Shown: positions 35,642-61,981, counted from the first letter of the stretch. The stretch: DNA of 64,000 bases from Archaeoglobi archaeon JdFR-42 (GCA_002010305.1 MTND01000009.1:18805-82804); one strand, 5' to 3'. Made by a program: numbers and translations. Notes: generated from the sequence alone by a model not told the origin.

Positions 35642-35650
35642 TTTTTACCC

Positions 35651-36832: not shown

Positions 36833-36853
36833 ATTCTTCTTCTTTCTATTCCG

Positions 36854-37435: not shown

Positions 37436-37451
37436 TTCATAATCCCCAATT

Positions 37452-43286: not shown

Positions 43287-43314
43287 ACTTTGTTTCCTCC
43301 TTTTTTATCTGTAG

Positions 43315-43479
43315 TTAGATGTATTGCTCTAGTTCTTTGATCAGCTTACCTGTATCAAGATTTTTTTGTTGAGCATGCTTTTCCAGACTCAAATTCCCTC
43401 CACAGCAGTCACAGATTCCATATTTTAAGAGAATTTGTTTTAAATTTGGATACGACCGCAGAACTTCTGAAAGAGTCAT
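43315..43479 (-). CDS. DUF1858-type small redox-disulfide domain protein
   Basis: MTLSEVLRSYPNLKQILLKYGICDCCGG... The ATG at 43479 begins 2 nt after the upstream stop. The ORF-track start at 43506 would overlap it. Confidence 0.65.
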   Translation of the reverse strand: MTLSEVLRSYPNLKQILLKYGICDCCGGNLSLEKHAQQKNLDTGKLIKELEQYI

Positions 43480-43480
43480 G

Positions 43481-43999: not shown

Positions 44000-44003
44000 G
44001 ACC

Positions 44004-45763: not shown

Positions 45764-45776
45764 TCTGCATTACCTC

Positions 45777-46634: not shown

Positions 46635-46658
46635 CTGAAAAATTAAAAAATAAAAAAG

Positions 46659-47966: not shown

Positions 47967-48022
47967 CCAATTCACCACAATTCAACATGATTAAATTAAT
48001 ATATATCTTTATCGATACCTGA

Positions 48023-50217: not shown

Positions 50218-51381
50218 ATGCGGTTAAAGATCTCTCAAATAGGGACTATTCTTTCAGGAGATATCTCGAATCCAATTTTAAAAGGAGACTGCATCGTTGT
50301 AGAAAACAATACTATTACCTTTGTGGGTTATGAGGAGGACTATGATGGGAAAGTTGACAAGGAAATAGATGCCAGAGGTATGACTGTCACTCCAGGATTG
50401 ATTGACTCCCATGTTCATCCTGTTCTCGGCGACTTCACTCCTCGGCAACGAACCCTTGATTTCATAGACAGTTCTCTTCATGGAGGAGTTACTACCATGA
50501 TTTCTGCTGGTGAAGCCCATACACCTGGTAGACCCAGAGATATAGCTGGCATCAAAGCTCTCGCTATTCTGGCTAAAAAATCCTTTGAAAATTTCAGACC
50601 AAGCGGAGTAAAAGTACACGCGGGAGCACTTATCTTAGAGAAAGGACTGGTTGAAAAAGATTTTGAGGAAGTTACAGCCCAGGGAGTATGGCTTGTTGGA
50701 GAAATAGGATTGGGTAGCATTTTTACACCCGAAGATGCTAAACCCATGGTTGAGATGGCCCAGAAATACGGGATGAAGGTAACCATGCATACGGGAGGGA
50801 CTTCCATCCCGGGAAGCAGTACTGTTACAGCCGATGATGTGATGGCCATCGAGCCAGATGTAGTATCCCATATAAACGGAGGGCCGACCGCTATCGCTAT
50901 AAATGAATGTCTGAAGCTCGTGGATGAGACCGATTTTCCCCTCGAACTTGTCCATTGTGGGAATCCAAAAGTGCTTATTGAAGTTATCAATGCTGTGGAG
51001 GATAGAGGGGATTTACACCGCATAATTGTTGGAAATGACGCTCCTTCAGGTACAGGTGTCATTCCTCTTGGGATTCTCAGAACTTTGTGTTTGATATCTT
51101 CAATTGGGGGTATATCAGGAGATCTAGCTGTTGCAATGGCCACAGGAAACACTAGATCAGTGTTCGGCCTTAACACGGGCATTATCGAAATAGGGAAAGA
51201 GGCGGATCTTGTGATTATGGATGCGCCAATGGGGAGTGTAGGAAACACTGCTGTAGAAGCAATAGAGGCTGGAGATGTACCGGGTATTGCTCTTGTCATG
51301 ATAGATGGGGAGATTAGGGTGGTAAAGAGCAGGAACACACCCCCGCCCGAGAGGATGGTTAAAATTAAGGAGGTGGAATAG
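50218..51381 (+). CDS. amidohydrolase superfamily protein, enamidase-like
   Basis: GLIDSHVHP metal motif, MHTGGTSIPGSS, VSHINGGP and GNDAPSGTG. GGTGAT SD lies upstream. Confidence 0.6.
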   Translation: MRLKISQIGTILSGDISNPILKGDCIVVENNTITFVGYEEDYDGKVDKEIDARGMTVTPGLIDSHVHPVLGDFTPRQRTLDFIDSSLHGGVTTMISAGEAHTPGRPRDIAGIKALAILAKKSFENFRPSGVKVHAGALILEKGLVEKDFEEVTAQGVWLVGEIGLGSIFTPEDAKPMVEMAQKYGMKVTMHTGGTSIPGSSTVTADDVMAIEPDVVSHINGGPTAIAINECLKLVDETDFPLELVHCGNPKVLIEVINAVEDRGDLHRIIVGNDAPSGTGVIPLGILRTLCLISSIGGISGDLAVAMATGNTRSVFGLNTGIIEIGKEADLVIMDAPMGSVGNTAVEAIEAGDVPGIALVMIDGEIRVVKSRNTPPPERMVKIKEVE

Positions 51382-52263
51382 ATGAAGATAACTCATGGAT
51401 TGATGGGGTCTCTTGTGACTCCTTTTACCAACGGAGAAGTAGATGAGAACAGTTTGAGAAGGCTCATCAATTTTCTCCTTGAGCAGAATGTGGATAGTGT
51501 TTCCACAACTTTGCCAACAGGGGAATTTACAAGCCTGAATTTTGACGAGATGAAAAAGGTAATAGAGATCACCGTTGACGAGGTTAATGGCAGAGTCCCT
51601 GTATGTGCTGGAACAGGCTGGAGTGCAACCAGAGAGACCATAGAATTGAGTAAATTTGCTGAAGATGTCGGAGCTGATGGAGTGATGCCTGTAGTTCCTT
51701 TTTTCGTGAGACCCATGGATAAGGGCATTTTAGCTCACTTCAATGAACTAGCAGAAAAAATCAACATACCCATAATTGTGTACAATGGCCCGGGTAGAAC
51801 AGGGGTTAATCTCAAACCAGAGGTTGTAAAAGAATTGAGCTCTCTTGAGAATATAGTGGGGGTTAAAGAAACAGATAGAGAAATGAGTCAGGTGTACAAA
51901 GTGATACAGATGACGGAAGGGAAAGTGGATGTAATGCAGGGATGGGAAGATCTCCTCCTTCCTTCCCTCGCTCTGGGAGCTACAGGAGTGGTATCAGTAG
52001 CCGCAAGTGTGATAGGAAAGGATATTGCCGAAATGATTAAAGCTTTCAATAAGGGAGACTTAAATAAAGCCAGGGAAATTCATTACAGCATACTTCCCAT
52101 CCTTGACGCTCTTTTCTGTGAATCCAACCCTGTTCCTCTGAAAGAAGCTCTTTTTATGATGGGTGCCATAGAATCTCCGGAAGTTCGTAAACCCCTTATG
52201 CCCATGTTGGAGACCAATAGAGAGGGGCTCAAAAACATCTTGTCAGAAAGGGGATACATTTAG
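51382..52263 (+). CDS. DapA/NAL-family class I (Schiff-base) aldolase
   Basis: LPTGEFTSL (GxTGE-type), VYNGPGRTG (Tyr motif) and VGVKETD (Schiff-base Lys context). The start abuts the upstream stop. Confidence 0.7.
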   Translation: MKITHGLMGSLVTPFTNGEVDENSLRRLINFLLEQNVDSVSTTLPTGEFTSLNFDEMKKVIEITVDEVNGRVPVCAGTGWSATRETIELSKFAEDVGADGVMPVVPFFVRPMDKGILAHFNELAEKINIPIIVYNGPGRTGVNLKPEVVKELSSLENIVGVKETDREMSQVYKVIQMTEGKVDVMQGWEDLLLPSLALGATGVVSVAASVIGKDIAEMIKAFNKGDLNKAREIHYSILPILDALFCESNPVPLKEALFMMGAIESPEVRKPLMPMLETNREGLKNILSERGYI

Positions 52264-53174
52264 CAAAATTCAATTTTTTCATACTCTTTTTTTAGTGTAA
52301 TTCCTTTTAAATCTTCGGGGTACATGGCAACATAGTTTCCCACTTTGATTATACAGGCTTTTACACCCATCTGTTTAGCTCTTTCAAAACCATTTTTTAA
52401 GGCCTCTTTCTGCTCTTCCTTGGTTAACTTTCCTACTCTCACCACTATTTCTTCTCTTGGAATGTCCGTCAATGGTTGTAATACTCCTGCTTTTACCTTC
52501 TTAATAGCCGGTGAATCCACAGAGACTGAATTACCGATTACTGTCGCAAAAGCATCTGCCATAGAAGCAGAGTTTTCAATGCAAGTTACTGCATCAGCTA
52601 TTCCTTTAGTAAAACTTCTCCCCCCAAACCCACTGGTACAAATCCCTCCAGCTACTTTCTCATCACTTATGGGCGGTTCTATTTCCAAATAACCAAAATG
52701 TGTTCCTGAGGCATCAATTAGCCCAACTATCAGTTTACTCGCCTTAAAAGCTATGTCACCATAGTTATTGACCACGATTTTATCCAGTCCGTTCTCCCCC
52801 AGTTCTTCCAGCTCTTTGACCATGAGTTCAGCAATACTTCCTGCCACGGCAGCCATTGGAGTGATTGGTTCACCACTCTTTCTCCAGACTGTTTGAGCTG
52901 CTCTGAACATCATTGCTACCACATCTGGTACATCTCTCCGCAATTCTTCCGGTTCTCTTTCTTCAACCCATCTGAAAAGGAGATCTTTGTGAGATGAGAC
53001 TTCCGATAATAGCTTTACCGCTTTCAATACGCATTTATCCATCACTTCTTCCGTGAAAATACTTCTATTTTCTTTTTCTGCCGTAATAACCAGACCCATA
53101 GGACCCAAGTAAATGTGCAATCTTCCACGGGCATCTATAAAAGTATTCAGATCATTATAATCTCTCAATTTCAT
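52260..53174 (-). CDS. UPF0280 / ApbE-like family protein
   Basis: ICTSGFGGRSFTKGIADAV and ADAFATVIGN resemble the ApbE motifs (ATSG.Y, AKG.A.D, ADA.sTA). 304 aa. Confidence 0.55.
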   Translation of the reverse strand: MKLRDYNDLNTFIDARGRLHIYLGPMGLVITAEKENRSIFTEEVMDKCVLKAVKLLSEVSSHKDLLFRWVEEREPEELRRDVPDVVAMMFRAAQTVWRKSGEPITPMAAVAGSIAELMVKELEELGENGLDKIVVNNYGDIAFKASKLIVGLIDASGTHFGYLEIEPPISDEKVAGGICTSGFGGRSFTKGIADAVTCIENSASMADAFATVIGNSVSVDSPAIKKVKAGVLQPLTDIPREEIVVRVGKLTKEEQKEALKNGFERAKQMGVKACIIKVGNYVAMYPEDLKGITLKKEYEKIEFC

Positions 53175-54894
53175 GTTCTCTCAAAAATTTGCTTAATGGA
53201 GTTACATTCTTAAGATGTCCTCCTATCCGGATAAATACATCTTTAGGCATGGTGTACTCCATAGGGGCAACTGTAGCTGGTGTGGGTATGTATGTGAACG
53301 GTCTCTCACCCATCACCTTTTCAACGTCCACATAGAAGTTTATTCCCCCTCCCGGTAATATGAAAGCCTTTGCTCCCCCTACAGTTACTTTTATTTCACC
53401 TTTATGCACTGCTTCAGTCACTGCTAGAGGGTTATTTGCTATACCGGCTCGAGCGCTACCTCCAACCCCTCCGCAGTAAAGGGCCGATACCTTAGCCTTT
53501 TCACAGTTTTTAGAGATGGTTTTAACAACATCCAATGCCTTTTTATCCGGTTCAATTTCCTTTAAATTCTTTTTTTCTAAGATAAACACGGAAATATGAT
53601 CGCCTGTTGTATCTGTAACAAGAATTCTCATTCCGTCCCAGGCTTGATCAAAATCGATAGATCGGATTGCATCTCTTGGATCTTTTACAGGGGTTCCACC
53701 GATTCCATCTCCATGTTCACCAAAATACCTCCCGTCTGTGCTCTTAATTCCAAAAGGAACTACACCAGAATATTTCATCCCCAAGAACTTGCCTGCTGAA
53801 TGTTCTGAAAGTAGACCAGTTATATGAGAATCCAGCACTATTACCTCATCAGCCACTTCTTTCAACAGGGGTGCAAACATGGCTATTACGGCACTTCCAC
53901 ATCCAAGACGCATTCTTTTAATAACTTCTCCATTGATGACCGGAGGTTTACCAATCTTCACACTCACTTTCACTCTCTTTCTCCCGACTCTGAGTTCCAC
54001 TTCTTCTCCGTTGGCTATTTCAACAACAGTCCTAGCAGCAGTAATTCCATTTTTACCCTGGAATACATTTACCCCACCGATATCTATCATTTTAGAACCA
54101 TATTCCTCTGTAACGATCATACCTACCTTTTTCCCATTTCTGTAAACAGCCTCACCTTCTTCACCGATGAACTCATCCGTGTCAATCTTCAACTTTAATA
54201 AACTAAAACTGAGAGGTGTAGCAGAAACAACGGTAACCACATCCACATCTTCTACAGTGTCCTCAACTATCACAGGAGCAGGAACAAAACATGGCTGAGT
54301 ATTGCCAGCACCAACCCCAGTAACCAGCGGTAAATCTGGAGTTTTCTCTGAGGGAACCGCGATTTTCCTGGCAAGGACTAATGAACCATTCAAATTTTTA
54401 TATCTCAGACAAGCTCCCAGATCTCCTTCTTTAATCTGACAGTTAACAGGACAGTAAGAACATATCACACCCTCAGAGGGATGAATTGAGATAGCATTTT
54501 TGGGACAAACCTTAACACATGTATTACAGTCGACGCAGATGGATGGATTTACATATGCCCTATCTTCTCCAAGGGAAATCGCTTTTTTCGGACACTCCTG
54601 TACACAGACTCCACATTTATTGCAGACATCTGAAACTACAGCATCTCCGCCTCCAATGGGTGGAACAATAACAACAGAATCCCCTTCCTGTATCTCCTCT
54701 GATTCAAAATCTTTCCAGATTACTTTACCATTGATCATAACCCTCGCATGCAACCCCCGTTCGAAAAGAGAATATTTTTCGTTCAGCGTATCAATGAGTT
54801 CCTGAACGGTACCTGTGTATAAGCTTATTATTTCTTTATCTTTTCCAGTTACATCCCTGATATTCGCCAGATATGTTACCCTGATCTCTTTCAT
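53155..54894 (-). CDS. MoaD/ThiS-like domain + 2x[4Fe-4S] ferredoxin domain + third Cys cluster + large uncharacterised catalytic domain (possibly 6-hydroxynicotinate-reductase-like)
   Basis: Residues 1-83 fit a MoaD pattern ending PPIGGG. Then CNKCGVCVQECP, CVDCNTCVKVCP and CSYCPVNC-x9-C. About 410 aa follow with no motif I recognise. Confidence 0.55.
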   Translation of the reverse strand: MKEIRVTYLANIRDVTGKDKEIISLYTGTVQELIDTLNEKYSLFERGLHARVMINGKVIWKDFESEEIQEGDSVVIVPPIGGGDAVVSDVCNKCGVCVQECPKKAISLGEDRAYVNPSICVDCNTCVKVCPKNAISIHPSEGVICSYCPVNCQIKEGDLGACLRYKNLNGSLVLARKIAVPSEKTPDLPLVTGVGAGNTQPCFVPAPVIVEDTVEDVDVVTVVSATPLSFSLLKLKIDTDEFIGEEGEAVYRNGKKVGMIVTEEYGSKMIDIGGVNVFQGKNGITAARTVVEIANGEEVELRVGRKRVKVSVKIGKPPVINGEVIKRMRLGCGSAVIAMFAPLLKEVADEVIVLDSHITGLLSEHSAGKFLGMKYSGVVPFGIKSTDGRYFGEHGDGIGGTPVKDPRDAIRSIDFDQAWDGMRILVTDTTGDHISVFILEKKNLKEIEPDKKALDVVKTISKNCEKAKVSALYCGGVGGSARAGIANNPLAVTEAVHKGEIKVTVGGAKAFILPGGGINFYVDVEKVMGERPFTYIPTPATVAPMEYTMPKDVFIRIGGHLKNVTPLSKFLREHEIERL

Positions 54895-56735
54895 GAGACT
54901 AAACCCAGTTCTTTAAGTTTTTCTTTATGTGGTATGCCATTTTCACTCCATCCTCTTAAACGGTAATATTCATCTAGCATGACTTCCAGTTCTACCACCT
55001 GATTTAAGGCTCCTTTGCTGGGATTGGGCTCATGGGTAAACCTTTTAGGAAGGGTATCATCTTTTCTTGTTACACCATGCTTAACAAGATACATTCTTTC
55101 AAGATTGATTATTCTTTCCCCTATGACCATCAGATCCTTCTCAGTAAATCTCACTCCCGTAGCAAAGGTTAACAATCTCGCCATATGCTCTACTGAAAAC
55201 CCATAAATAAGGTTGGTCATGAATTCACAAATTCCAAGAGAATCTGCCAGAGCTGCCACATGCTCACTCCATATTACTAACTTGGCCTTTCCTTCCACGG
55301 CAAATCTGTCAGAGGCTTTTTCTGTTCCAAACATCTCTTTTGCTCTTTCTGGTGGAAAGGCATACTCTGCTGTTGGAAGAGCCCTCAAATGATCGCCACC
55401 TCGACTTGCAACAGCATATCCAAGACCATAAGCTTTTTTTCCTCTTGGATCCGAAGCACAATGTAACAGCCCCTTTGTATGGATTACAAATTCTTCCCCA
55501 CCCAGCTTTTTTGCGGCTTCATAAGCTCCCTCAGCTAGGATGTCACCGAACCCTTCCCGATGAGCAATCATATCTACAAGGCGAATGATGGAGTCACTAT
55601 CTCCCCATTTAAGCTCAAAACCCACTGTTTTTTTATCTATAATGCCTTTTTCGTAAGCCTCCAGAGCCCAGCTCACCGTTCTAGAGGTGGTTATAACATC
55701 CAGTCCAAGCTTGTTCAGCATAGTATTGAGATATAGCACTGCCTCAGGATCTGATATCCCACATCCTGATCCAAAACCTCCAGTTTGCTCATATTCAGGC
55801 CCCTCACCATATGTTTTATACTTACCATCTTTCACCACATAAAAATGACTGCAATGGATGTAACACATATAGCAACCTTTACTCTTGGTTATATATTTAT
55901 CCAGCAATGTTTCAGCGCTTAAATTTTCAGCAAATTCAAAATCCCCTCTTTGACTGTTATAGGTATTCAGCCACCCCTGTTCATTGGCTATCATTAATAG
56001 GGCTGGAGTTCCGTATGTCGAAAGGCTTCGAGCCATAGGATCAGTCAGTATATCATCTCTGGTTGCAAGAGCTTCTTCAAGGAATTTATCAGGATCATAC
56101 AGACTCACACCTTTCGTCCCTCTAACCACAACACCCTTGAGATTCTTTGAGCCCATCACAGCACCCATGCCACATTTTCCTGCTGCTCTAGACAGGTTAC
56201 TCAGAACACATGCAGTTTTAACAAGATTTTCTCCAGCAGGTCCTATCACAAGTGTTTGGGCTTCTATATCGGTCTCTTCCCTGAGAATTCTATCGGTTTC
56301 CCAGACATTCTGGCCCCATATGTGATTGGCATTTCTTATCTCAATATCATCATCCCTGATTGAGATGTAACAGGGCGTTTTTGCCTTACCTGTCACAATA
56401 AGATGGTCATAGCCAGCAAATCTGAGCTCTGGTCCAAAGTGCCCTCCACTATTTCCATCACAGAGCATTCCATTTATCGGAGACTTTGAGGTGACTGTCC
56501 ATCTGCCTGAAGAAGGAGCGAATGTTCCTCCAAGGGGACCTGTTCCTACAATAAAGGGATTTTCTTCACTGAATGGATGTGTATTCTCATCTGTAAGGTC
56601 ATAAAGTAACTTCGAGTTTCCACCTCGTCCACCTAGAAAATTCAGCCTGATGTCTTCGGGCGTTGGATATACCTTGACATTACCTGATGAAAGGTCCACT
56701 TTGACAATTCTTCCACTCCACCCATAAATATTCAT
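54891..56735 (-). CDS. aor: aldehyde:ferredoxin oxidoreductase family tungsto/molybdopterin enzyme
   Basis: GWSGRIVKVDLSSG start and the LGGRGG motif. 614 aa with typical AOR layout. Confidence 0.85.
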   Translation of the reverse strand: MNIYGWSGRIVKVDLSSGNVKVYPTPEDIRLNFLGGRGGNSKLLYDLTDENTHPFSEENPFIVGTGPLGGTFAPSSGRWTVTSKSPINGMLCDGNSGGHFGPELRFAGYDHLIVTGKAKTPCYISIRDDDIEIRNANHIWGQNVWETDRILREETDIEAQTLVIGPAGENLVKTACVLSNLSRAAGKCGMGAVMGSKNLKGVVVRGTKGVSLYDPDKFLEEALATRDDILTDPMARSLSTYGTPALLMIANEQGWLNTYNSQRGDFEFAENLSAETLLDKYITKSKGCYMCYIHCSHFYVVKDGKYKTYGEGPEYEQTGGFGSGCGISDPEAVLYLNTMLNKLGLDVITTSRTVSWALEAYEKGIIDKKTVGFELKWGDSDSIIRLVDMIAHREGFGDILAEGAYEAAKKLGGEEFVIHTKGLLHCASDPRGKKAYGLGYAVASRGGDHLRALPTAEYAFPPERAKEMFGTEKASDRFAVEGKAKLVIWSEHVAALADSLGICEFMTNLIYGFSVEHMARLLTFATGVRFTEKDLMVIGERIINLERMYLVKHGVTRKDDTLPKRFTHEPNPSKGALNQVVELEVMLDEYYRLRGWSENGIPHKEKLKELGLVS

Positions 56736-57199
56736 CAGACCACCCTTTCTCCAGAAAGAAATCTTTTTACGAGCTCAATCCTTTTTTCACTCCCGGATTT
56801 AAATTCTTCACCGAAGAATATAGCATGGGTGGGACATATTGTCGCGCAAAAAGGGTCTCCACCACATAGATCGCACTTAATAGGTCTATTCCCCCTGACA
56901 GATATTGATCCAAAGGGACAGGCGATAACACATAACTTGCAACCAATGCATCTCTCATCATTTATTATAACGGCTTTTCCCTCCCGTACTACTGCCCCAA
57001 CTGGACACACATTCATACAAGGAGGGTCCTCACAGTGAAAACATAGCACAGGAAAATCTATTCCTTTTTCTTCGAATTTAACTACCTTCACTCTGGAAAA
57101 TGATGGATTCGCTATTTTTTCTTTTATCAAAGAACAACCAGACTCACATATCCTGCAACCGGTGCATTTATCCGGGTCGGATAACAGGATGAACTCCAT
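56735..57199 (-). CDS. 4x[4Fe-4S] ferredoxin-domain electron-transfer protein
   Basis: CTGCRICESGC, CFHCEDPPCMNVCP, CIGCKLCVIACP and CDLCGGDPFCATICP. Start is at 57199 or 57226. Confidence 0.8.
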   Translation of the reverse strand: MEFILLSDPDKCTGCRICESGCSLIKEKIANPSFSRVKVVKFEEKGIDFPVLCFHCEDPPCMNVCPVGAVVREGKAVIINDERCIGCKLCVIACPFGSISVRGNRPIKCDLCGGDPFCATICPTHAIFFGEEFKSGSEKRIELVKRFLSGERVV

Positions 57200-57240
57200 A
57201 ATACCACGTCGCCAATTGCTTATCATCTTACGATATTTAA

Positions 57241-58278
57241 TTATTTCGAATTTATTGAATTAAATACCTCTAAAACTTCTATTGTGAGTTCAATGGAGCT
57301 ACTGGACTTTTTAGCAGATAGTGGATCGAATTCACATATATCAAGGCCCACCACATTGCAATTTTTGATGATCCAAATAACAGAGTCGATAAATGGTTTA
57401 CACCCAATTCCGTTATAGTCATTAAATCTAACTCCAGAGATGCATGTGCCTGATGCCACATCCAAATCGATGGACAGCAAGACTGGTTGCCTTTCGAAAC
57501 CTTTCATCACTTTTTTAAAAAATCCTGCAGGATTGCTCCTGAGTCTATCTCTCTGTATGATTTTCACACCCTGTTTTTCAAATCCAGTGTAGAAATCCAG
57601 ATATTTCTTTACTCTTTCATCATCGATTTCCCATGCATGTTCAGGGGGATAGTCTGCCACTCCAGCTACAACAGTATTTTCAGGGTTCACAATGTTATTT
57701 TCCCATAGATGATACAGATATGAATCAGCATTGTAAGAATTGGGCCTTCCATAGATATACGGGTTGTATAGAGAATATCTGGATTCAGGATTTGTCTCAG
57801 CATCATACTGGATCAAATTGCATCTGATTTCCGGTATTATAGCATCAAAATGAGCATCCAGTACCACATATACAAGATTTTCATAGATATTCGAAAGATA
57901 CTCTGCCAGTCCTCCCGAAAGACTGTGATCAACTCCCACCATCACAGGAATTCCTTCCGCATGATTAACACATGCCTTGAATACTTCCTCTGCATACTCA
58001 TAACATCCATTCGAGTCTATAAAAGCCACAAAGTTATCCACAGTGAGCATGGGTAAATCATATATATCAGGAACAGGTCGCAACCAACTTTCCACTTCAA
58101 TTTTAAAAAAAGAGACACCAACTCGTTTCTCTAGTTCAGTGGATGGATCTATCCAAGAGAGACTAGATGGGTTTAAAACCGCCCTCCTTTTACTTTCTAT
58201 TCTTGGTTCCCTTTCATCTGGATCAAGAGAACAGCTGAGGAACCAACATTCACCGGCAAAATCCCTCATTGAACTCAT
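57241..58278 (-). CDS. ureohydrolase (arginase / agmatinase / formiminoglutamase) family protein with an N-terminal extension
   Basis: VGVDHSLSGG, VLDAHFDA and LSIDLDVASG give a complete binuclear-Mn ligand pattern. The start overlaps the upstream gene by 20-29 nt. Confidence 0.7.
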   Translation of the reverse strand: MSSMRDFAGECWFLSCSLDPDEREPRIESKRRAVLNPSSLSWIDPSTELEKRVGVSFFKIEVESWLRPVPDIYDLPMLTVDNFVAFIDSNGCYEYAEEVFKACVNHAEGIPVMVGVDHSLSGGLAEYLSNIYENLVYVVLDAHFDAIIPEIRCNLIQYDAETNPESRYSLYNPYIYGRPNSYNADSYLYHLWENNIVNPENTVVAGVADYPPEHAWEIDDERVKKYLDFYTGFEKQGVKIIQRDRLRSNPAGFFKKVMKGFERQPVLLSIDLDVASGTCISGVRFNDYNGIGCKPFIDSVIWIIKNCNVVGLDICEFDPLSAKKSSSSIELTIEVLEVFNSINSK

Positions 58279-59284
58279 CAGCAGCCTTTACCATGGCTTT
58301 AAGATTATCCAGAGGTGCCTGAGGAGGTATGGCACACGCACCACATAGCACATCAATCCCATCTTTCAAAGCCTGGAGGGAGAGCTCTTTCACCACCTCA
58401 GGAGTTCCATTGAGCAATCCCTCTACCGTTGGGACGTTGCCGAACAGAGCCAGTTTTCCACCAAGCTTCTCTTTTGCTGTTTTAACATCCACCATAGAAT
58501 CAAATGAATATGCTTCAAATCCAGAATCTGGAATGAAATCCAAGAAATAGCTGGTATTACCACAAATATGCAATATTATTTCACCCTTTACACTCCTGGC
58601 TATTTCTCTGTAAATAGGAATTAATAATTCTTTGAAACTCCTAGGACTGATTAAATCACCACTAGCAGTCGGGTCTGCTATGCATAAAATGTTTCCGCCA
58701 CTTTCCATCACTCTGTTACCATACTCTATATTGAATTTTGTTACTTCATTCAAACCCTCTTTTACTGCTTCTTTTTCCTTCAATGTCATCCTCAGCATTT
58801 TTTCTGTACCAATCAGATGACCTAAAAGCGTGAAAGGACCGACAATTTGAGGGTATATTGGGAGGAAATCTCCATATTTCTCATTTAATATTTCAAGACT
58901 CTTGAAAACCAGGTCAAACCTTCCTTTCTCAAAGACGTCATCGGTGAAGGTCAATTGAGAGACATCCTCGAAAGCTGGTTTGATCACATATGGATTTCTG
59001 CCCATTTTTCCCATATTTAACGTGCTACCAAAAGCTTCTGCTTCCACTGTTAGTTCGAATGGAACTTTAATACCTTTCAAACCCACCACTTCAAAAGCTG
59101 CAGAGGCTAACTTCACCATCAATTCCACATCAGAGTGAGCTTCTGGCCAGAAGGCATTAACAGCTTTCATTTGATCGAAAGTTGGAGTGGTTAAGGGGCT
59201 CGAGGCCAGTGTTTCACATTCTCTTCCTCTTTTTTTCAGAATATCCTTGGTTAATTCCAGATAATTCATGTTTATCCCTTCCAT
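58250..59284 (-). CDS. uroporphyrinogen decarboxylase (URO-D) superfamily protein, MtaA/CmuA-like methyltransferase type
   Basis: N-terminal pattern FDQMKAVNAFWPEAH, and ILHICGNT plus a late Cys (LCGACAIPP), consistent with Zn ligands of MtaA-type enzymes. GGTGA lies before the ATG. Confidence 0.65.
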   Translation of the reverse strand: MEGINMNYLELTKDILKKRGRECETLASSPLTTPTFDQMKAVNAFWPEAHSDVELMVKLASAAFEVVGLKGIKVPFELTVEAEAFGSTLNMGKMGRNPYVIKPAFEDVSQLTFTDDVFEKGRFDLVFKSLEILNEKYGDFLPIYPQIVGPFTLLGHLIGTEKMLRMTLKEKEAVKEGLNEVTKFNIEYGNRVMESGGNILCIADPTASGDLISPRSFKELLIPIYREIARSVKGEIILHICGNTSYFLDFIPDSGFEAYSFDSMVDVKTAKEKLGGKLALFGNVPTVEGLLNGTPEVVKELSLQALKDGIDVLCGACAIPPQAPLDNLKAMVKAADEFNEGFCR

Positions 59285-59310
59285 TTCACCATTCTCATGT
59301 ATTAAAAAAT

Positions 59311-60456
59311 TTAAAGGGAGCGCTGGACAAGCTCCATTATATCATATACCGGTATCGAGGGCTGAGCATCCTGAAGGTTTCTCACACAGAAAGGACATGA
59401 TGTAACAATTGCCTCTACCCCTAAAGATTCTGCTTCTTTTACCCTATCCTTAGAAGTCTGAATAGCAAGATCTGGGAAAGCTCCTTTAACTCCTCCACCA
59501 GCCCCACAGCAGAAAGAGTTGCCTCTGTTTCTCGGCATTTCAATCAACTCAATCCCAAGCTTGTTCAGTATTTCTCTGGGTTCTTCGTATATCTCAGCAT
59601 GTCTTCCCAAATGACATGGATCATGGTAAGTAACTTTCATACCAAGAGATGCTGAGGGTCCCAGTCGGTCTTTCAGGAACTGGGTTATGTGATAGAAATT
59701 CAGTTTGTCATACCCAGGAAACTCAAAACTGGCATAATCTTTGCTGAGGGTTTTGTAACACCCAGCACATGTAGCGACTACATCCTTAATACCCGTCTCT
59801 TTGATCTTATCAATATTTTCACCCATTACTTGCTCTGCAACATCCCACTGCCCAATTCTGATTAATGGAGATCCACAACAAACCTCATCTTTCCCTAAAA
59901 CTGTGAATTCAATACCCAGCTTGTCAAAGACGTCTGCGGTCGCTTTCGGTATGTGGGGTTCTCTTAAAGCAGCTGTGCATCCTACAAAATACAGCACCTC
60001 TCTTCCATCTGCCTTTTTAACCATCCACTCTTCTTTTTTCTCTGGACTCTCTCCATATGGATTTTTAAACTGGAGAACATTCTGGGATATCCTTTCATGC
60101 TCCTTCAGAGATTTTCCATTTTTAACAGCTTCATATCTGAGAGCCTCAATGGTATTCAGAATTTCAGGCTTGAAATCAGTCTGACATTGATATTCACACC
60201 CACCACACACATTGCATGTAAATAGGGCTTTAATCATGGTGTCACTCCAATCCACTTCTTTATTTAGGATGGCTTTAGCCATTGCTGACTTGGATCTACT
60301 TCCCAGAAAAGCGTCAAATTTGAAAGTATTTCCTTGAGGACAGATGGGAGCAAAAAGTGGAGGAGGACCATAGCTGTAAGCAACTTTACATGTTCCACAG
60401 TAGGTGCACATGTACACCGCATCCTTTAATTCCTCAAGTGTTTTAAACCCCATCAT
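59311..60456 (-). CDS. Fe-S oxidoreductase with two CCG domains (GlcF / HdrD-like)
   Basis: CTYCGTCKVAYS and CNVCGGCEYQC ferredoxin-like motifs. Two CCG motifs (VCCGSP, FCCGAGGG). Confidence 0.8.
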   Translation of the reverse strand: MMGFKTLEELKDAVYMCTYCGTCKVAYSYGPPPLFAPICPQGNTFKFDAFLGSRSKSAMAKAILNKEVDWSDTMIKALFTCNVCGGCEYQCQTDFKPEILNTIEALRYEAVKNGKSLKEHERISQNVLQFKNPYGESPEKKEEWMVKKADGREVLYFVGCTAALREPHIPKATADVFDKLGIEFTVLGKDEVCCGSPLIRIGQWDVAEQVMGENIDKIKETGIKDVVATCAGCYKTLSKDYASFEFPGYDKLNFYHITQFLKDRLGPSASLGMKVTYHDPCHLGRHAEIYEEPREILNKLGIELIEMPRNRGNSFCCGAGGGVKGAFPDLAIQTSKDRVKEAESLGVEAIVTSCPFCVRNLQDAQPSIPVYDIMELVQRSL

Positions 60457-60457
60457 C

Positions 60458-61885
60458 TCACCTCACGAGCAGCTTACCAGGATTCATGATATTGTTTGGA
60501 TCGAGCATATCCTTAACCTTCTTCAGCAACTCCACATATCCTGTATCAGCTCGCTTGTATATCTCTTCCTGGAATTCCAGCGGTGGTTTATAGGGTATTC
60601 CCCCCACATCCAGCGCCACTCTTAACGCTTCTACGATAGCATCTCTCGCATTCTTGATCTTCTCTGGGTCTCTTTTATCAAAAGGTGTCATTGCTCTGAG
60701 CATCCCGTAATGGGTCCCCCTATAAAGGGTAATTCTGACAGAAGGGGAAAGATTTCTCCGAATATATATTTCCTTCCATCTATTGTAGGCTTCAGGCCAT
60801 TTAGGAGCTGGAGTGAAGGTCCCTGGCCATGAAATTCCACCCCCTGCCGATTTGGCATAATTTTTGGTAGAGCCAACAATCTGACTTGGAAGCTGAGTCC
60901 TTGCCTTTTTTGCCTCTTCAGGATACTCATACTCCTTCACACTGCTTCCACTTTCCTGTTCTTTTTTAAGGGACATCTCCCACATTTCTCGTTTAGCTTC
61001 TAGCTCTTTTTCTGTAAACCCGGTTATTACACTGTAACTGTACCATTCAGGCTCATCATCCGGTTTAGGTTTATAAGGGTACGGAATAGGGATCTGAGCT
61101 AGCCACCAGCTCACTGCGGTCAAATCATCCGCTGCTTCATATCTACCCCATCGGATCATGTAATTTGTCATATCTTCAACGTTCTCAGCCGAGACTGTTA
61201 ACACATCACTGTAGTCTGGGATTCCTGATACAACAATACCCAGCTTTGTTACGATCCCTGTGGTACCGAGGGTTCCTATAAACAAGCCATCCAGTCTAGG
61301 AACTGGATATAACGAATGCCATGAACCTGTTATCCCTGCACTACCAAGTCTTACCAATTCTCCTGTGGGAAGAATAACCTCCATACTGGTTATCATCTGA
61401 CTGTTAAGGCCATATCTACCGGTAAGATGTCCAATTCCATGATTTATGGCACAAGCCAGTACAGATGCCGATGGTGGACCCACAGGCCATCCAAACCTTA
61501 AGCCCTTTTCATATAGAGCGTCGGCCAGCTGTGCATGGCTGACTCCTGGCTCAATCACCGCATACCTCATTTCTTCATTGATCTCCACAATTTTATTCAT
61601 TCTTTTTAAATCTAAAATTATACCCCCTTTTTCTGGAATGCACAGTCCCCCTATATTGGTCCCCCCTGTAAATGGGATCACCGGGACTTTCTCTTCGTTA
61701 GCCATTTTCATAATAGCCTGAATCTCTTCAACAGTTTCCGGTAGGGCAATGATGTCTGGCATTTTTGGATCCACAAATGACATATCATATGAATACGTGT
61801 ATCTGACGAACTCGTCGTCGGATACCCACTCATCCCCCAGAATGTCAACTAGCCTTCTGTAAACCCTCTTTTTATCCCAACTCAT
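60458..61885 (-). CDS. FAD-linked oxidase (GlcD / D-lactate dehydrogenase family)
   Basis: FAD-binding PCMH-type domain (PFTGGTNIGG). The ATG at 61885 is preceded by GGGTGAT; the ORF-track start at 61918 is a GTG. Confidence 0.8.
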   Translation of the reverse strand: MSWDKKRVYRRLVDILGDEWVSDDEFVRYTYSYDMSFVDPKMPDIIALPETVEEIQAIMKMANEEKVPVIPFTGGTNIGGLCIPEKGGIILDLKRMNKIVEINEEMRYAVIEPGVSHAQLADALYEKGLRFGWPVGPPSASVLACAINHGIGHLTGRYGLNSQMITSMEVILPTGELVRLGSAGITGSWHSLYPVPRLDGLFIGTLGTTGIVTKLGIVVSGIPDYSDVLTVSAENVEDMTNYMIRWGRYEAADDLTAVSWWLAQIPIPYPYKPKPDDEPEWYSYSVITGFTEKELEAKREMWEMSLKKEQESGSSVKEYEYPEEAKKARTQLPSQIVGSTKNYAKSAGGGISWPGTFTPAPKWPEAYNRWKEIYIRRNLSPSVRITLYRGTHYGMLRAMTPFDKRDPEKIKNARDAIVEALRVALDVGGIPYKPPLEFQEEIYKRADTGYVELLKKVKDMLDPNNIMNPGKLLVR

Positions 61886-61981
61886 AACATCACCCGATAA
61901 AGGATAACCATTTATCACACATCAATAATGTTAAATAAACCTTTTTATTTTTCAATCTAATAAGTAAAGGGATAGGAGCAT

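What the first reader, a model, noticed from the sequence alone, without database searches (positions are those of the whole stretch)
52260..61918. 9.7-kb, eight-gene minus-strand operon combining AOR, ferredoxin, a ureohydrolase, an MtaA/UroD-like protein and a GlcD/GlcF-type dehydrogenase
The junctions are +1, +26, -29, +14, -1, -4 and -20 nt (negative values are overlaps), indicating translational coupling. The order is GlcD-like, GlcF-like, MtaA-like, ureohydrolase, 4x[4Fe-4S] ferredoxin, AOR, MoaD-ferredoxin enzyme, UPF0280. The set joins a hydroxy-acid dehydrogenase, a guanidino/amidino hydrolase with an intact Mn site and an N-terminal extension, an aldehyde oxidoreductase with its own ferredoxin, and the ring-reductase-like enzyme. 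AOR could oxidise the aldehyde that an enamidase-type reaction releases. The E. barkeri route instead reduces that aldehyde. I cannot map the whole set to any known pathway.
Basis: inference. Interest (0 to 1): 0.6.

Follow-up and report, generated by a model that had tools for sequence, protein, structure and literature searches.

The report
Chimeric archaeal operon of three modules
Eight tightly packed genes in an Archaeoglobus-like archaeon form a real operon, but it splices together three independently conserved gene sets rather than encoding one new pathway: a known-type ring-opening route for the vitamin-B3 derivative 6-hydroxynicotinate, a tungsten aldehyde oxidoreductase, and an uncharacterised enzyme trio common in uncultured archaea.

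Summary
Eight minus-strand ORFs sit with junctions of at most 41 nt whichever start codons are used, and each gene identity is correct at family level. The whole block recurs in at least three Archaeoglobaceae-type genomes. Comparative genomics splits it into three units. Module A is a GlcD-like flavoprotein, an HdrD/GlcF-like CCG protein, an MtaA-like Zn methyltransferase and a deep-branching Mn ureohydrolase. This unit occurs without the rest in Methanomethylicia, Asgard and other Archaeoglobales. Module C is a polyferredoxin plus AOR, which stands alone in relatives. Module B is a MoaD-fused 6-hydroxynicotinate reductase (Hnr) plus ApbE-like UPF0280. Together with the convergent enamidase gene (509 bits to E. 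barkeri enamidase), B is the core of 77 bacterial nicotinate clusters. Those clusters carry either the reductive E. barkeri branch or a methylmalonate-semialdehyde-dehydrogenase-type aldehyde dehydrogenase, never both in long loci. In the archaeal loci the aldehyde oxidiser is that Aldedh, the AOR, or in one locus both. The function of module A is unknown. Verdict: a new variant of a known pathway fused to an uncharacterised module. Interest is moderate.

The parts
60458..61918 (-). g1: FAD_binding_4 flavoprotein ('GlcD-like'), module A. The probable true start is ATG 61885 (475 aa).
   Evidence: Pfam FAD_binding_4 117 bits and FAD-oxidase_C 38 bits. The glcD equivalogs score far below cut-off: 121 vs 568 and 83 vs 897. 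The FAD domain is closest to VAO/PCMH-type and D-LDH structures. The cap domain (residues 253-486) has no significant PDB match. Orthologues score 650-710 bits next to the ureohydrolase in distant archaea.
59311..60456 (-). g2: HdrD/GlcF/TfrB-like iron-sulfur protein with two CCG domains, module A
   Evidence: Pfam CCG x2 (138 bits) and Fer4_8. The best NCBIfam hit is TfrB at 232 bits, below its cut-off of 385; GlcF scores 80 vs 333. It lies next to the ureohydrolase family in 44 of 82 loci.
58250..59284 (-). g3: MtaA/CmuA-family Zn methyltransferase-like protein, a variable member of module A
   Evidence: URO-D 222 bits. PRK06252 scores 327 vs 244 and TIGR01463 282 vs 235, both above cut-off. 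The MtaA equivalog scores 309 vs 400, below cut-off. The H239-x-C241...C317 motif is conserved in 13 homologues from module-A loci. In L092 the homologue is fused to a B12-binding domain. No corrinoid protein is found in the operon.
57241..58278 (-). g4: deep-branching Mn ureohydrolase (arginase fold) with a conserved N-terminal extension; the signature gene of module A
   Evidence: Pfam Arginase 64 bits. Agmatinase, HutG and arginase equivalogs are far below cut-off. The metal ligands are invariant. The family has 152 clusters at E<=1e-30 among 1.84 billion representatives. The AF2 model has pLDDT 93.7 and is equidistant from all solved ureohydrolases (TM 0.5-0.6, 11-18% identity).
56735..57226 (-). 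g5: 4x[4Fe-4S] polyferredoxin, the AorA-type electron-transfer subunit of AOR (module C)
   Evidence: Fer4_11 and related families. The best PDB hits are the Fe-S subunits of AOR complexes: 9mqx_E (127 bits) and AorA 8c0z_C (115 bits). It sits immediately upstream of the AOR orthologue in every locus seen.
54891..56735 (-). g6: tungsten-type aldehyde:ferredoxin oxidoreductase, AOR sensu stricto clade (module C)
   Evidence: AFOR_N 248 bits and AFOR_C 449 bits. PDB scores: 9mqx_D 480, P. furiosus AOR 469, AorB 389, FOR 332, WOR5 261, BamB 224. GAPOR scores only 29 bits. The CxxCxxxC...C cluster motif is visible in the translation. The orthologue clade is small, at 65-82% identity.
53155..54894 (-). 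g7: MoaD-like beta-grasp domain, 2[4Fe-4S] ferredoxin domain and 6-hydroxynicotinate reductase (Hnr) catalytic domain (module B)
   Evidence: It is 50-54% identical over 84% of its length to the roughly 500-aa proteins of bacterial nicotinate clusters, and all invariant columns are kept. TIGR01687 moaD_arch scores 54.9 vs 49.5. In the AF2 model the N-terminus matches MoaD/SAMP structures and the catalytic domain has no PDB match. It overlaps the AOR stop codon by 4 nt.
52260..53174 (-). g8: UPF0280, an ApbE-like protein and obligate partner of Hnr (module B)
   Evidence: NCBIfam PRK04334 family. Precomputed Pfam hit PF27030 AbpE_bact. It is adjacent to Hnr in 66 of 77 bacterial loci and in all archaeal loci. 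Twenty of 25 family members hit Pfam ApbE weakly, best 3e-7. The only PDB relative is 2O34.
50218..51381 (+). Enamidase orthologue.
   Evidence: E 7.8e-152, 509 bits, full length against E. barkeri enamidase 2VUN. It is next to Hnr in 64 of 77 bacterial loci and in the archaeal loci.
51382..52263 (+). DHDPS/DapA-family gene, co-oriented with enamidase. Its stop overlaps the g8 stop tail-to-tail by 4 nt. Its role is uncertain.
   Evidence: DHDPS 277 bits; the dapA equivalog scores 294 vs 206. It is present beside enamidase only in the Archaeoglobaceae-type loci that lack AA_synth.
48961..49920 (-). NrpR-family nitrogen regulator, divergent from enamidase
   Evidence: NRD1_2 222 bits and HTH_12. 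NrpR plus a BCAA/urea-type ABC transporter also flank the Hnr locus of Hydrothermarchaeota (L007) and L004.
44768..48964 (-). M29/NicX-like protein (48023-48964), then an ABC-transporter binding protein and two permeases, downstream of NrpR
   Evidence: Peptidase_M29, Peripla_BP_6 and BPD_transp_2. Precomputed PF26233 NicX. UrtB/UrtC-like, below cut-off.
61886..61981 (.). AT-rich divergent intergenic region shared with the FtsX/ABC genes; the presumed promoter of the operon
   Evidence: Sequence read: a TTTATTTAA-type element on the operon strand and GGTGAT 5 nt before ATG 61885. No NrpR-type GGAA-N6-TTCC operator was found here.

Best explanation
The eight genes form one tightly packed, probably co-transcribed unit that is specific to an Archaeoglobaceae-type lineage. 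It was built by joining three units that exist independently elsewhere.

Module B (g7 Hnr, g8 UPF0280, and the convergent enamidase) carries out the first committed steps of anaerobic 6-hydroxynicotinate breakdown. Hnr uses low-potential electrons to reduce the 2-pyridone ring to 1,4,5,6-tetrahydro-6-oxonicotinate. Enamidase then opens the ring, releasing ammonia and 2-formylglutarate. UPF0280 is an ApbE-like maturation or cofactor-loading factor for Hnr.

Module C (g5 polyferredoxin, g6 tungsten AOR) occupies the position that a methylmalonate-semialdehyde-dehydrogenase-type aldehyde dehydrogenase holds in related loci. It oxidises 2-formylglutarate, or its decarboxylation product glutarate semialdehyde, to the acid. 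It passes the two electrons through its polyferredoxin back to the ferredoxin domain of Hnr. The overall conversion to glutarate-type products, CO2 and NH3 is therefore redox-balanced. This resembles the oxidative Azorhizobium route, not the reductive B12-dependent E. barkeri route. The NrpR regulator and ABC transporter next door suggest nitrogen-scavenging use.

Module A (g1-g4) is a separate, uncharacterised system. A Mn amidino/guanidino hydrolase works with an FAD/CCG-FeS dehydrogenase and, in some lineages, a Zn methyltransferase. It probably also produces a 3-oxopropanoate-type aldehyde, which the same AOR could oxidise. That would explain why AOR sits at the A/B junction.

Shown here: the gene identities, the modularity and the co-occurrence statistics. 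Inferred: the substrates, the electron loop, the role of UPF0280 and all of the chemistry of module A.
For: The ORFs and junctions are confirmed.

Module B:
- g7 keeps every invariant column of the Hnr family.
- The enamidase scores 509 bits over its full length against 2VUN.
- In 77 bacterial loci Hnr co-occurs with Ena (64), UPF0280 (66), AA_synth (60), and the nicotinate dehydrogenase, Hgd, Hmd, Mgm, Mii, Dmd and Dml genes of the E. barkeri pathway.
- There are two mutually exclusive downstream architectures. Among 40 loci of at least 18 kb, 30 have Hgd only, 7 have Aldedh only and none has both.
- That Aldedh belongs to the CoA-acylating methylmalonate-semialdehyde dehydrogenase subfamily (476-484 bits vs a cut-off of 448.5). 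Its substrates are 2-substituted 3-oxopropanoates, and 2-formylglutarate is one. The product would be glutaryl-CoA.
- L009 continues after Hnr-UPF0280 with acyl-CoA dehydrogenase, ETF and FixCX.

Archaeal loci:
- L007 has Ena-Aldedh-AA_synth-Hnr-UPF0280 and no AOR.
- The window, L004, L010, L006 and L179 have Fd-AOR-Hnr-UPF0280, with an AOR/Hnr overlap of 4-11 nt.
- All six archaeal Hnr proteins carry an archaeal MoaD-type domain.
- g6 is closest to broad-range AORs, and g5 is closest to the Fe-S subunits of AOR complexes.

Module A independence:
- Contexts.
- Of 82 ureohydrolase loci, 44 have GlcF and 43 GlcD. All 14 of the closer relatives with at least 4 kb of flank have GlcF and 13 of them GlcD, and none has Hnr, UPF0280 or an enamidase orthologue.
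- Aldedh of the same MMSDH subfamily (7 loci) or non-orthologous AORs (6 loci) have been recruited next to module A.

Module C independence: L176 and L177.

UPF0280 is ApbE-like.

NrpR and a transporter lie beside Hnr loci in two archaeal phyla.
Against: No nicotinate dehydrogenase (Mo hydroxylase) is present in the 64-kb window or in any archaeal locus. The source of 6-hydroxynicotinate is therefore unexplained, and the true substrate could be another 2-pyridone.

Orthologous Fd-AOR pairs also occur with no Hnr nearby. AOR-family genes also sit beside module A elsewhere. L006 carries both AOR and the Aldedh. The assignment of AOR to the enamidase product is therefore not exclusive.

The three genomes with the full operon also share flanking genes, so its conservation may reflect common descent only.

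AA_synth, conserved in 60 of 77 bacterial clusters, is absent from the window.

The ApbE link of UPF0280 is weak. The window protein itself gives no Pfam ApbE hit, and no ApbE-type flavinylation motif is conserved in the archaeal Hnr.

There are no expression, biochemical or cofactor data.
Confidence: 0.55

Rival explanations
1. All eight enzymes, plus enamidase, act on one substrate in a single new pathway. For example, an N-heterocycle carrying a guanidino or methyl group might be demethylated, de-amidinated, oxidised, ring-reduced and ring-opened in turn.
For: The gene order and tight junctions are conserved in at least three genomes at 57-65% identity. A single presumed promoter region precedes g1. 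Aldehyde dehydrogenases of the same MMSDH subfamily accompany both halves elsewhere, which hints at chemically similar intermediates.
Against: The g1-g4 set occurs without Hnr, UPF0280 or enamidase in every other lineage examined. The Hnr/UPF0280/Ena set occurs without g1-g4 in 77 bacterial and several archaeal loci. Another Archaeoglobales lineage has module A alone. The genomes that share the operon also share its flanks, so they are not independent observations.
Confidence: 0.12
2. Fd-AOR belongs functionally to module A: GlcD/HdrD, MtaA, the ureohydrolase and AOR form one unit. Hnr-UPF0280 is merely appended downstream, and the enamidase aldehyde is handled by an enzyme encoded elsewhere or decays spontaneously.
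For: An aldehyde oxidiser lies in the retrieved stretch of 16 of 44 module-A loci that also show GlcF. These comprise 9 AOR loci, including the 3 Archaeoglobaceae-type ones, and 7 MMSDH-type Aldedh loci. In L113, L116 and L122 the AOR is directly upstream of GlcD.
Against: Those AORs are distant paralogues of g6 (262-448 bits, against 1032-1200 for the orthologues). The g6 orthologue sits as Fd-AOR-Hnr-UPF0280 in L006, where only small ORFs including a MazE antitoxin gene on the opposite strand lie in the 1.1 kb available upstream, and in L179. The AOR stop overlaps the Hnr start in the window, L004 and L179. The archaeal Hnr carries a MoaD-type domain that NCBIfam classifies as the archaeal MoaD family.
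Confidence: 0.2
3. g1-g3 are energy-metabolism components, not catabolic enzymes. The GlcD/HdrD pair would be a heterodisulfide-type disulfide reductase and g3 a methyl-thiol transferase, as proposed in genome papers on Mcr-encoding archaea. The operon would then mix energy conservation with unrelated genes.
For: The HdrD-GlcD pair is repeatedly proposed for CoM-S-S-CoB reduction in Methanomethylicia, Bathyarchaeota and Archaeoglobi (PMC6421429; 10.1101/2022.08.18.504445; 10.1101/2022.12.01.518715). The best hit of g2 is the thiol:fumarate reductase subunit TfrB. g3 passes the MtaA/CmuA subfamily cut-offs and keeps the Zn-thiol motif.
Against: In the closer relatives the pair is always accompanied by a Mn ureohydrolase with intact ligands. 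It also occurs in proteins named from Heimdall- and Lokiarchaeota. It often has an aldehyde dehydrogenase beside it. No mcr, mtr or corrinoid protein gene lies among the window ORFs scanned. All equivalog cut-offs are missed.
Confidence: 0.12
4. The archaeal Hnr and enamidase act on a pyridone or related cyclic enamide other than 6-hydroxynicotinate, for example a heat- or damage-derived NAD breakdown product.
For: No nicotinate hydroxylase lies in any archaeal locus or in the 64-kb window, whereas bacterial loci of both architectures have one. The archaeal Hnr proteins form a separate clade with an extra MoaD domain. An M29/NicX-like gene lies next to NrpR.
Against: Identity to the bacterial enzymes of nicotinate clusters is high: 50-54% for Hnr with all invariant columns kept, and 509 bits for enamidase. 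The same MMSDH-type Aldedh occurs in archaeal and bacterial loci. A hydroxylase could be encoded elsewhere in the genome.
Confidence: 0.2

Closest known systems
Eubacterium barkeri nicotinate fermentation cluster (Alhapel et al. 2006, PNAS 103:12341; recalled from memory because the paper is not in the library)
   Same: It has a 6-hydroxynicotinate reductase with an N-terminal 2[4Fe-4S] domain, and an enamidase (2VUN, 509 bits to the window protein). Clusters of this type in 77 anaerobic bacteria also contain UPF0280.
   Different: The window has no nicotinate dehydrogenase. It also lacks 2-(hydroxymethyl)glutarate dehydrogenase and dehydratase, the B12 mutase, the isomerase, and dimethylmalate dehydratase and lyase. 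The aldehyde is presumably oxidised by AOR rather than reduced. Hnr carries an extra MoaD-like domain. The host is an archaeon.
Azorhizobium caulinodans nicotinate catabolism (Kitts et al. 1992, J Bacteriol 174:7791; recalled from memory)
   Same: The route runs 6-hydroxynicotinate -> THON -> hydrolytic ring opening with NH4+ release -> decarboxylation -> oxidation to glutarate -> glutaryl-CoA. It serves as a nitrogen source. This matches the Aldedh/AOR-type architecture, the ACAD/ETF genes in L009 and the NrpR context.
   Different: It is an aerobic alphaproteobacterium. As far as I know its genes for these steps are not defined. Here the oxidant would be a tungsten AOR reducing ferredoxin, not an NAD-dependent enzyme.
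AOR of Pyrococcus furiosus (1AOR) and the multi-subunit AORs with a polyferredoxin subunit (Aromatoleum aromaticum AorABC 8C0Z; complex 9MQX)
   Same: g6 scores 469, 389 and 480 bits against these catalytic subunits. g5 scores 115-127 bits against their Fe-S subunits. The domain pair and the cluster cysteines are the same.
   Different: No FAD/NAD-binding AorC-type or NuoF-type subunit gene is present. Instead the next gene, overlapping by 4 nt, is Hnr with its own ferredoxin domain.
The 'HdrD-GlcD' gene pair of Methanomethylicia, Bathyarchaeota and Archaeoglobi described in genome papers (PMC6421429; 10.1101/2022.08.18.504445)
   Same: g1 and g2 are this kind of pair. Their orthologues in a Methanomethylicia contig (L094) sit side by side.
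   Different: The papers read here do not mention a partner. In this analysis the pair that resembles g1/g2 is consistently followed by a Mn ureohydrolase, and often by an MtaA-like gene and an aldehyde oxidiser. This points to catabolism rather than, or in addition to, heterodisulfide reduction.
Ureohydrolase (arginase/agmatinase/formiminoglutamase/guanidino-acid hydrolase) superfamily
   Same: g4 has the arginase fold, and all binuclear-metal ligands and the active-site Glu are conserved.
   Different: Identity to any solved member is 11-18%, with no nearest subfamily. All equivalog models are far below cut-off. The family has a conserved extra N-terminal segment of about 85 residues and is small and almost wholly archaeal.
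CoA-acylating methylmalonate-semialdehyde dehydrogenase (MMSDH/IolA, TIGR01722)
   Same: This subfamily supplies the aldehyde dehydrogenase that sits where AOR sits in the window, both next to enamidase/Hnr and next to module A in other genomes. It defines the likely chemical class of the aldehyde: a 2-substituted 3-oxopropanoate.
   Different: The window has no member of this family. A tungsten AOR, which forms the free acid and reduces ferredoxin, is present instead.

Membership tests
6-hydroxynicotinate reductase (Hnr, EC 1.3.7.1) family | Full-length homology of the catalytic domain to the proteins encoded in nicotinate fermentation clusters, with the family's invariant residues | tested here: met
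   50-54% identity over 84% of g7. All invariant columns of a 16-sequence alignment are kept, including the Cys145/148/152/162 motif. The homologues sit in E. barkeri-type clusters.
6-hydroxynicotinate reductase (Hnr, EC 1.3.7.1) family | N-terminal 2[4Fe-4S] ferredoxin domain | tested here: met
   Two CxxCxxCxxxCP motifs (C91...C130) are invariant. Fer4 Pfam hits. Clostridial ferredoxin structures match the model.
6-hydroxynicotinate reductase (Hnr, EC 1.3.7.1) family | Genomic association with enamidase and UPF0280 | tested here: met
   UPF0280 overlaps g7 by 20 nt. The enamidase orthologue lies 0.9 kb away, convergent.
6-hydroxynicotinate reductase (Hnr, EC 1.3.7.1) family | Genomic association with nicotinate dehydrogenase (the source of the substrate) | tested here: not met
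   No NdhF/S/L/M homologue lies in the 64-kb window or in any archaeal locus. Most bacterial loci have them.
6-hydroxynicotinate reductase (Hnr, EC 1.3.7.1) family | Ferredoxin-dependent reduction of 6-hydroxynicotinate to THON; covalently bound flavin | not testable with these tools
   This needs enzyme assays and cofactor analysis.
Enamidase (amidohydrolase, EC 3.5.2.18) | Close full-length similarity to the characterised, crystallised E. barkeri enzyme | tested here: met
   phmmer vs PDB: 2vun_A, E 7.8e-152, 509 bits, residues 5-383 of 387.
Aldehyde:ferredoxin oxidoreductase, AOR sensu stricto | AFOR_N plus AFOR_C domains, closer to AOR than to FOR, GAPOR, WOR5 or BamB | tested here: met
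   Pfam 248 and 449 bits. PDB: AOR 469-480, FOR 332, WOR5 261, BamB 224. GAPOR model 29 bits vs 1300. This is a score ranking; no formal phylogeny was built.
Aldehyde:ferredoxin oxidoreductase, AOR sensu stricto | Tungsten-pterin cofactor and aldehyde substrate range | not testable with these tools
   The metal and the substrates cannot be read from sequence.
Glycolate oxidase GlcDEF / D-2-hydroxy-acid dehydrogenase | GlcD and GlcF equivalog-level similarity, a GlcE subunit, and a recognisable substrate (cap) domain | tested here: not met
   glcD scores 121 vs 568 and 83 vs 897. GlcF scores 80 vs 333. GlcE has only a marginal hit. The cap domain has no significant PDB match. Membership holds only at the FAD_binding_4 and CCG superfamily level.
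Heterodisulfide reductase HdrD / thiol:fumarate reductase TfrB | Two CCG domains plus a 2[4Fe-4S] domain; equivalog-level score | tested here: inconclusive
   The domain architecture is met. TfrB scores 232 vs 385 and HdrB models 46-76 bits, all below cut-off.
Arginase/ureohydrolase family (PF00491) | Pfam gathering score and the binuclear-metal ligands (H, DxHxD, DxD) plus the active-site Glu | tested here: met
   64 bits vs 22. H118, D141, H143, D145, D271, D273 and E316 are invariant. The fold is confirmed.
Arginase, agmatinase, formiminoglutamase or guanidino-acid hydrolase (specific enzymes) | Equivalog-level similarity to a characterised subfamily | tested here: not met
   Agmatinase 41 vs 174, HutG 24 vs 229, arginase 22 vs 228. 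The structural hits are all tied at 11-18% identity.
MtaA/CmuA methylcobamide:thiol methyltransferases | Subfamily score and the Zn-binding H-x-C...C motif | tested here: met
   PRK06252 327 vs 244; TIGR01463 282 vs 235. H239, C241 and C317 are conserved.
MtaA/CmuA methylcobamide:thiol methyltransferases | A cognate corrinoid protein or domain, and MtaA/MtbA equivalog score | tested here: not met
   No B12-binding gene lies in the operon or among the window ORFs scanned. MtaA scores 309 vs 400 and MtbA 241 vs 600. A homologue in L092 does carry a fused B12-binding domain.
ApbE flavin transferase family | Significant match to the ApbE profile or structures; a flavinylation target motif in the partner | tested here: inconclusive
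   g8 itself gives no ApbE hit. Twenty of 25 UPF0280 homologues give weak ApbE hits, best 3e-7. The precomputed family name is AbpE_bact. A PDB profile search finds only 2O34. The bacterial 'GSAT' stretch of Hnr is 'GSAV/I' in the archaeal proteins.

The most novel reading that the evidence does not exclude
The GlcD-like flavoprotein, the HdrD-like CCG protein and the N-terminally extended Mn ureohydrolase (g1, g2, g4) form a previously unrecognised enzyme system. It is often accompanied by an MtaA-like methyltransferase and an MMSDH-type or AOR-type aldehyde oxidiser, and it is widespread in uncultured archaea (Methanomethylicia, Asgard, Archaeoglobales). It would degrade an amidino or guanidino compound through a 3-oxopropanoate-type aldehyde. 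If so, the 'HdrD-GlcD' pair widely invoked for heterodisulfide reduction in non-euryarchaeal methanogens is really part of a catabolic module. In the window this module would share one tungsten AOR and a closed ferredoxin loop with an archaeal 6-hydroxynicotinate pathway.
Probability: 0.25. Interest if true: 0.7.

Novelty: new variant of a known kind. Interest (0 to 1): 0.5.

Why it matters
1. It would be the first indication, in the sources I could search, that archaea carry the Hnr/enamidase steps of anaerobic nicotinate-type ring cleavage. They would be wired to a tungsten AOR instead of the B12-dependent reductive branch. A self-contained electron loop (aldehyde -> polyferredoxin -> ring reductase) is directly testable in vitro.

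2. The bacterial comparison reveals an unreported split of anaerobic nicotinate clusters. One type has the E. barkeri branch. The other has an MMSDH-like enzyme that should convert 2-formylglutarate to glutaryl-CoA. The comparison also shows two conserved unassigned members, UPF0280 and AA_synth.

3. The ureohydrolase/GlcD/HdrD trio gives a concrete handle on a gene pair that metabolic reconstructions of Methanomethylicia and related archaea have treated as a heterodisulfide reductase without evidence.

None of this overturns a paradigm. It refines annotation and yields clear experiments.

Tried and rejected
- NrpR operator: a search for GGAA-N6-TTCC found 2 matches, both inside coding sequence, against 2.2 expected by chance. 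There is no support for, or against, NrpR control.
- tRNA and Rfam scans of the window found nothing.
- The Alhapel 2006 paper is not held in the library. Statements about Hnr cofactors and the E. barkeri gene list rest on memory plus the bacterial loci analysed here.
- The papers on the 2,8-dioxopurine pathway and on riboflavin degradation mention nicotinate only in passing.
- I considered the DHDPS-family gene as a Schiff-base decarboxylase replacing AA_synth, because the two are mutually exclusive in the archaeal loci. I set this aside as weak. The gene passes the DapA equivalog cut-off, it keeps the DapA-type Tyr/Arg/Lys residues on reading the sequence, and the loci that share it are syntenic relatives.
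- I considered g1 as a PCMH/VAO-type hydroxylase making 6-hydroxynicotinate from a methyl-pyridone. Only the FAD domain aligns, so there is no basis for this.
- I considered 3-guanidinopropionate -> beta-alanine -> malonate semialdehyde as the module-A chemistry. It fits the ureohydrolase, flavoprotein and MMSDH families but leaves the MtaA-like gene unexplained, and nothing supports it directly.
- The rest of the window is housekeeping (trp and aro genes, ftsZ, ribosomal proteins) and adds nothing.

Full report
**Observation.** The ORF listing finds the eight minus-strand ORFs at exactly the reported coordinates. The junctions are +1, +26, -29, +14, -1, -4 and -20 nt. The window is identical to a contig of NCBI assembly GCA_003935005.1 and of JGI metagenome 3300037583. 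The two public gene callers chose other starts for g1 (475 aa), g3 (339 aa), g4 (342 aa) and g5 (154 aa). With any combination of starts no junction exceeds 41 nt. For g1, ATG 61885 is preferable to GTG 61918. It is preceded by GGTGAT at the right distance, and the orthologues are 475 aa long. The operon therefore probably starts 33 nt inside the reported end. Composition is uniform across the region. No tRNA or Rfam element lies in the window.

**Gene identities.**
- g1 is an FAD_binding_4 flavoprotein. Its FAD domain resembles VAO/PCMH-type and D-lactate dehydrogenase structures. Its substrate (cap) domain matches nothing solved. The glcD models are missed by a factor of about five or more in score.
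- g2 has a dicluster domain and two CCG domains. Its best match is the thiol:fumarate reductase subunit TfrB, and it is below every equivalog cut-off.
- g3 passes the MtaA/CmuA subfamily cut-offs and keeps the H-x-C...C zinc motif. No corrinoid protein is encoded nearby.
- g4 is a ureohydrolase with every metal ligand and the active-site Glu invariant, and a conserved N-terminal extension of about 85 residues. A confident model (pLDDT 93.7) is equidistant from all solved family members, at 11-18% identity.
- g5 and g6 are a polyferredoxin and an AOR. They are closest to P. furiosus AOR and to the catalytic and Fe-S subunits of the multi-subunit AORs 8C0Z and 9MQX. They are clearly further from FOR, WOR5, BamB and GAPOR.
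- g7 is a three-part protein. It has an archaeal MoaD-type beta-grasp domain that ends in the usual Gly-Gly, a clostridial-type 2[4Fe-4S] ferredoxin domain, and the catalytic domain of the 6-hydroxynicotinate reductase family. The catalytic domain is 50-54% identical to the bacterial proteins and keeps all invariant positions.
- g8 is UPF0280, a family with weak but repeated similarity to ApbE.

**The neighbourhood matters.** Converging on g8 are a DapA-family gene, whose stop codon overlaps that of g8 by 4 nt, and an amidohydrolase. The amidohydrolase is a full-length, 509-bit match to the crystallised E. barkeri enamidase. Diverging from enamidase is an NrpR-family nitrogen regulator. It is followed by an M29/NicX-like gene and a BCAA/urea-type ABC transporter. 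The remainder of the window is housekeeping.

**Comparative genomics of Hnr.** A scan of one genome per species returned 80 loci, 77 of them bacterial. I searched their six-frame ORFs with the window proteins and clustered them. Hnr is embedded in complete E. barkeri-type nicotinate clusters. These contain nicotinate dehydrogenase subunits, enamidase (64 loci), UPF0280 (66), a PF06684 AA_synth protein (60), 2-(hydroxymethyl)glutarate dehydrogenase and dehydratase, the B12 mutase with its MutL-like partner, PrpF-type isomerase, an aconitase-type dehydratase and an ICL-type lyase. None of these loci contains AOR, the g5 ferredoxin, or the g1, g3 or g4 families. A single GlcF-like hit was found.

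The bacterial loci fall into two types. Among 40 loci of at least 18 kb, 30 have the reductive branch, 7 have an aldehyde dehydrogenase instead, and none has both. That aldehyde dehydrogenase belongs to the CoA-acylating methylmalonate-semialdehyde dehydrogenase subfamily, above its curated cut-off. MMSDH enzymes oxidatively decarboxylate 2-substituted 3-oxopropanoates to acyl-CoA (established enzymology). 2-Formylglutarate is such a compound, and the product would be glutaryl-CoA (inference). This is the logic of the Azorhizobium route, in which the ring-opened product is decarboxylated and oxidised to glutarate and then glutaryl-CoA (recalled from memory). I found no paper describing this variant.

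**Archaeal Hnr loci.** Only six archaeal MoaD-Hnr proteins exist in the protein collection.
- Hydrothermarchaeota-type loci (L007, L008, L011, L012) have NrpR, an ABC transporter, enamidase, the MMSDH-type Aldedh, AA_synth, Hnr and UPF0280, with no AOR.
- A related contig (L009) continues with FixCX, an acyl-CoA dehydrogenase and ETF.
- L006 and L179 have Fd-AOR-Hnr-UPF0280. L006 also has enamidase-Aldedh-AA_synth downstream. Only small ORFs, including a MazE antitoxin gene on the opposite strand, lie in the 1.1 kb available upstream of its ferredoxin gene.
- The window, L004, and L090 with L010/L091 have the full eight-gene order with the same flanks.

No archaeal locus, and nothing in the 64-kb window, encodes a nicotinate hydroxylase or any gene of the reductive branch. 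In these loci AOR therefore stands where the aldehyde dehydrogenase stands in other Hnr clusters. Its stop codon overlaps the Hnr start. Every archaeal Hnr carries a MoaD-like domain of the kind NCBIfam classifies as archaeal MoaD. Hnr needs two low-potential electrons and AOR delivers two to ferredoxin (established properties of the two enzyme classes). A closed loop through the g5 polyferredoxin is therefore the simplest working model, but it is an inference.

**Independence of the AOR pair.** The g6 orthologue clade is small, at 82, 70, 69, 66 and 65% identity, followed by a drop to 52% or less. The 65-66% members (L176, L177) are Fd-AOR pairs among beta-oxidation genes, with neither Hnr nor g1-g4 nearby. 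Fd-AOR is therefore a portable two-gene unit.

**Independence of g1-g4.** The g4 family is small: 77 hits in the word-indexed search, and 152 clusters at E<=1e-30 among 1.84 billion representatives. It is almost entirely archaeal. Context look-ups and a metagenome scan gave the following.
- GlcF-like genes lie in 44 and GlcD-like genes in 43 of 82 loci, many of which are short contigs.
- Among the 14 closer relatives with at least 4 kb on both sides, all 14 have GlcF-like and 13 have GlcD-like genes.
- MtaA-like genes occur in 12 loci. One, in an Archaeoglobaceae lineage, is fused to a B12-binding domain.
- Hnr, UPF0280 and enamidase orthologues never occur. There is one marginal 35-bit Hnr-query hit and one 34-bit amidohydrolase hit.

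Aldehyde oxidisers recur beside this module. An Aldedh of the same MMSDH subfamily is found in 7 loci, and AOR-family genes that are only distant paralogues of g6 in 6 loci. Module A therefore probably also ends in a 3-oxopropanoate-type aldehyde. In the window the single AOR lies exactly between the two modules. The published interpretation of the HdrD-GlcD pair as a heterodisulfide reductase does not mention the ureohydrolase partner.

**Verdict.** The set is not one unmapped pathway but a lineage-specific fusion of three separately conserved units. One of them, together with enamidase, maps onto the upper part of known anaerobic nicotinate catabolism, followed by an oxidative step of the Azorhizobium kind.

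Several things remain unknown:
- the origin of the pyridone substrate, since no hydroxylase was found;
- whether AOR serves module B, module A or both;
- the role of UPF0280, and of AA_synth, which is absent here;
- the whole chemistry of module A.

The fusion is conserved only among syntenic relatives, so it may reflect shared regulation (nitrogen scavenging, a shared aldehyde oxidiser) or simply descent. I rate it a new variant of a known kind, of moderate interest. The more novel possibility rests in the ureohydrolase/GlcD/HdrD module.

Noticed in passing
window 53155-54894 (g7), residues about 140-579: The catalytic domain of the 6-hydroxynicotinate reductase family is modelled with confidence (pLDDT mostly 85-95) as a largely beta architecture. 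Foldseek finds no match for it in the PDB; only the MoaD-like and ferredoxin domains match. The family appears to lack any solved structure.
   Followed up: partly
window 54640-54894 (N-terminus of g7); also P0002-P0006: All six archaeal Hnr proteins carry a fused MoaD/SAMP-like beta-grasp domain that still ends in Gly-Gly just before the ferredoxin domain. Bacterial Hnr proteins lack it. The domain is present even in the Hydrothermarchaeota protein, whose locus has no AOR.
   Followed up: partly
L013-L089 (bacterial Hnr loci): UPF0280 (66 of 77 loci) and a PF06684 AA_synth protein (60 of 77) are conserved members of anaerobic nicotinate clusters and have no assigned role. The clusters split into a reductive type (Hgd/Hmd/Mgm and the rest) and an MMSDH-type aldehyde dehydrogenase type, and the two do not co-occur in long loci.
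   Followed up: partly
window 48023-48964 (-): A 313-aa M29-peptidase-like protein has a precomputed Pfam hit to NicX (2,5-dihydroxypyridine dioxygenase family). It overlaps the NrpR stop by 4 nt and precedes the ABC transporter. This is a second nicotinate-themed family in the neighbourhood. It is absent from the orthologous locus L004.
   Followed up: no
window 52260-52263: The stop codons of g8 (minus strand) and the DapA-family gene (plus strand) overlap tail-to-tail by 4 nt. This leaves no room for terminators between the two convergent units.
   Followed up: no
L092 6205-7989: In an Archaeoglobaceae/Archaeoglobales lineage the MtaA-like gene of module A is fused to B12-binding_2 and B12-binding domains, a CmuA-like architecture. 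The module there is preceded by an MMSDH-type Aldedh and an SSF transporter.
   Followed up: partly
L176 1-1558 and 9535-11848: A relative carries two Fd-AOR pairs. One is immediately next to an NrpR-family regulator. They lie beside hydantoinase A/B, methylmalonyl-CoA-mutase-type and beta-oxidation genes. NrpR-AOR linkage may be recurrent.
   Followed up: no
window 42111-44000 (-): A truncated-looking COX1/ccoN-family protein (391 aa, matching only a short stretch of the profile) lies next to DUF2249, ScdA_N/DUF1858 and FeS_assembly_P genes. This could be an NO- or O2-stress cluster in an otherwise anaerobic-looking genome.
   Followed up: no
window 30232-41199 (-): A long minus-strand block encodes aromatic amino-acid biosynthesis. 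It contains a fused prephenate dehydrogenase/chorismate mutase/prephenate dehydratase-ACT protein, archaeal DHQ synthase II and a DeoC-type aldolase, plus the complete trp gene set.
   Followed up: no
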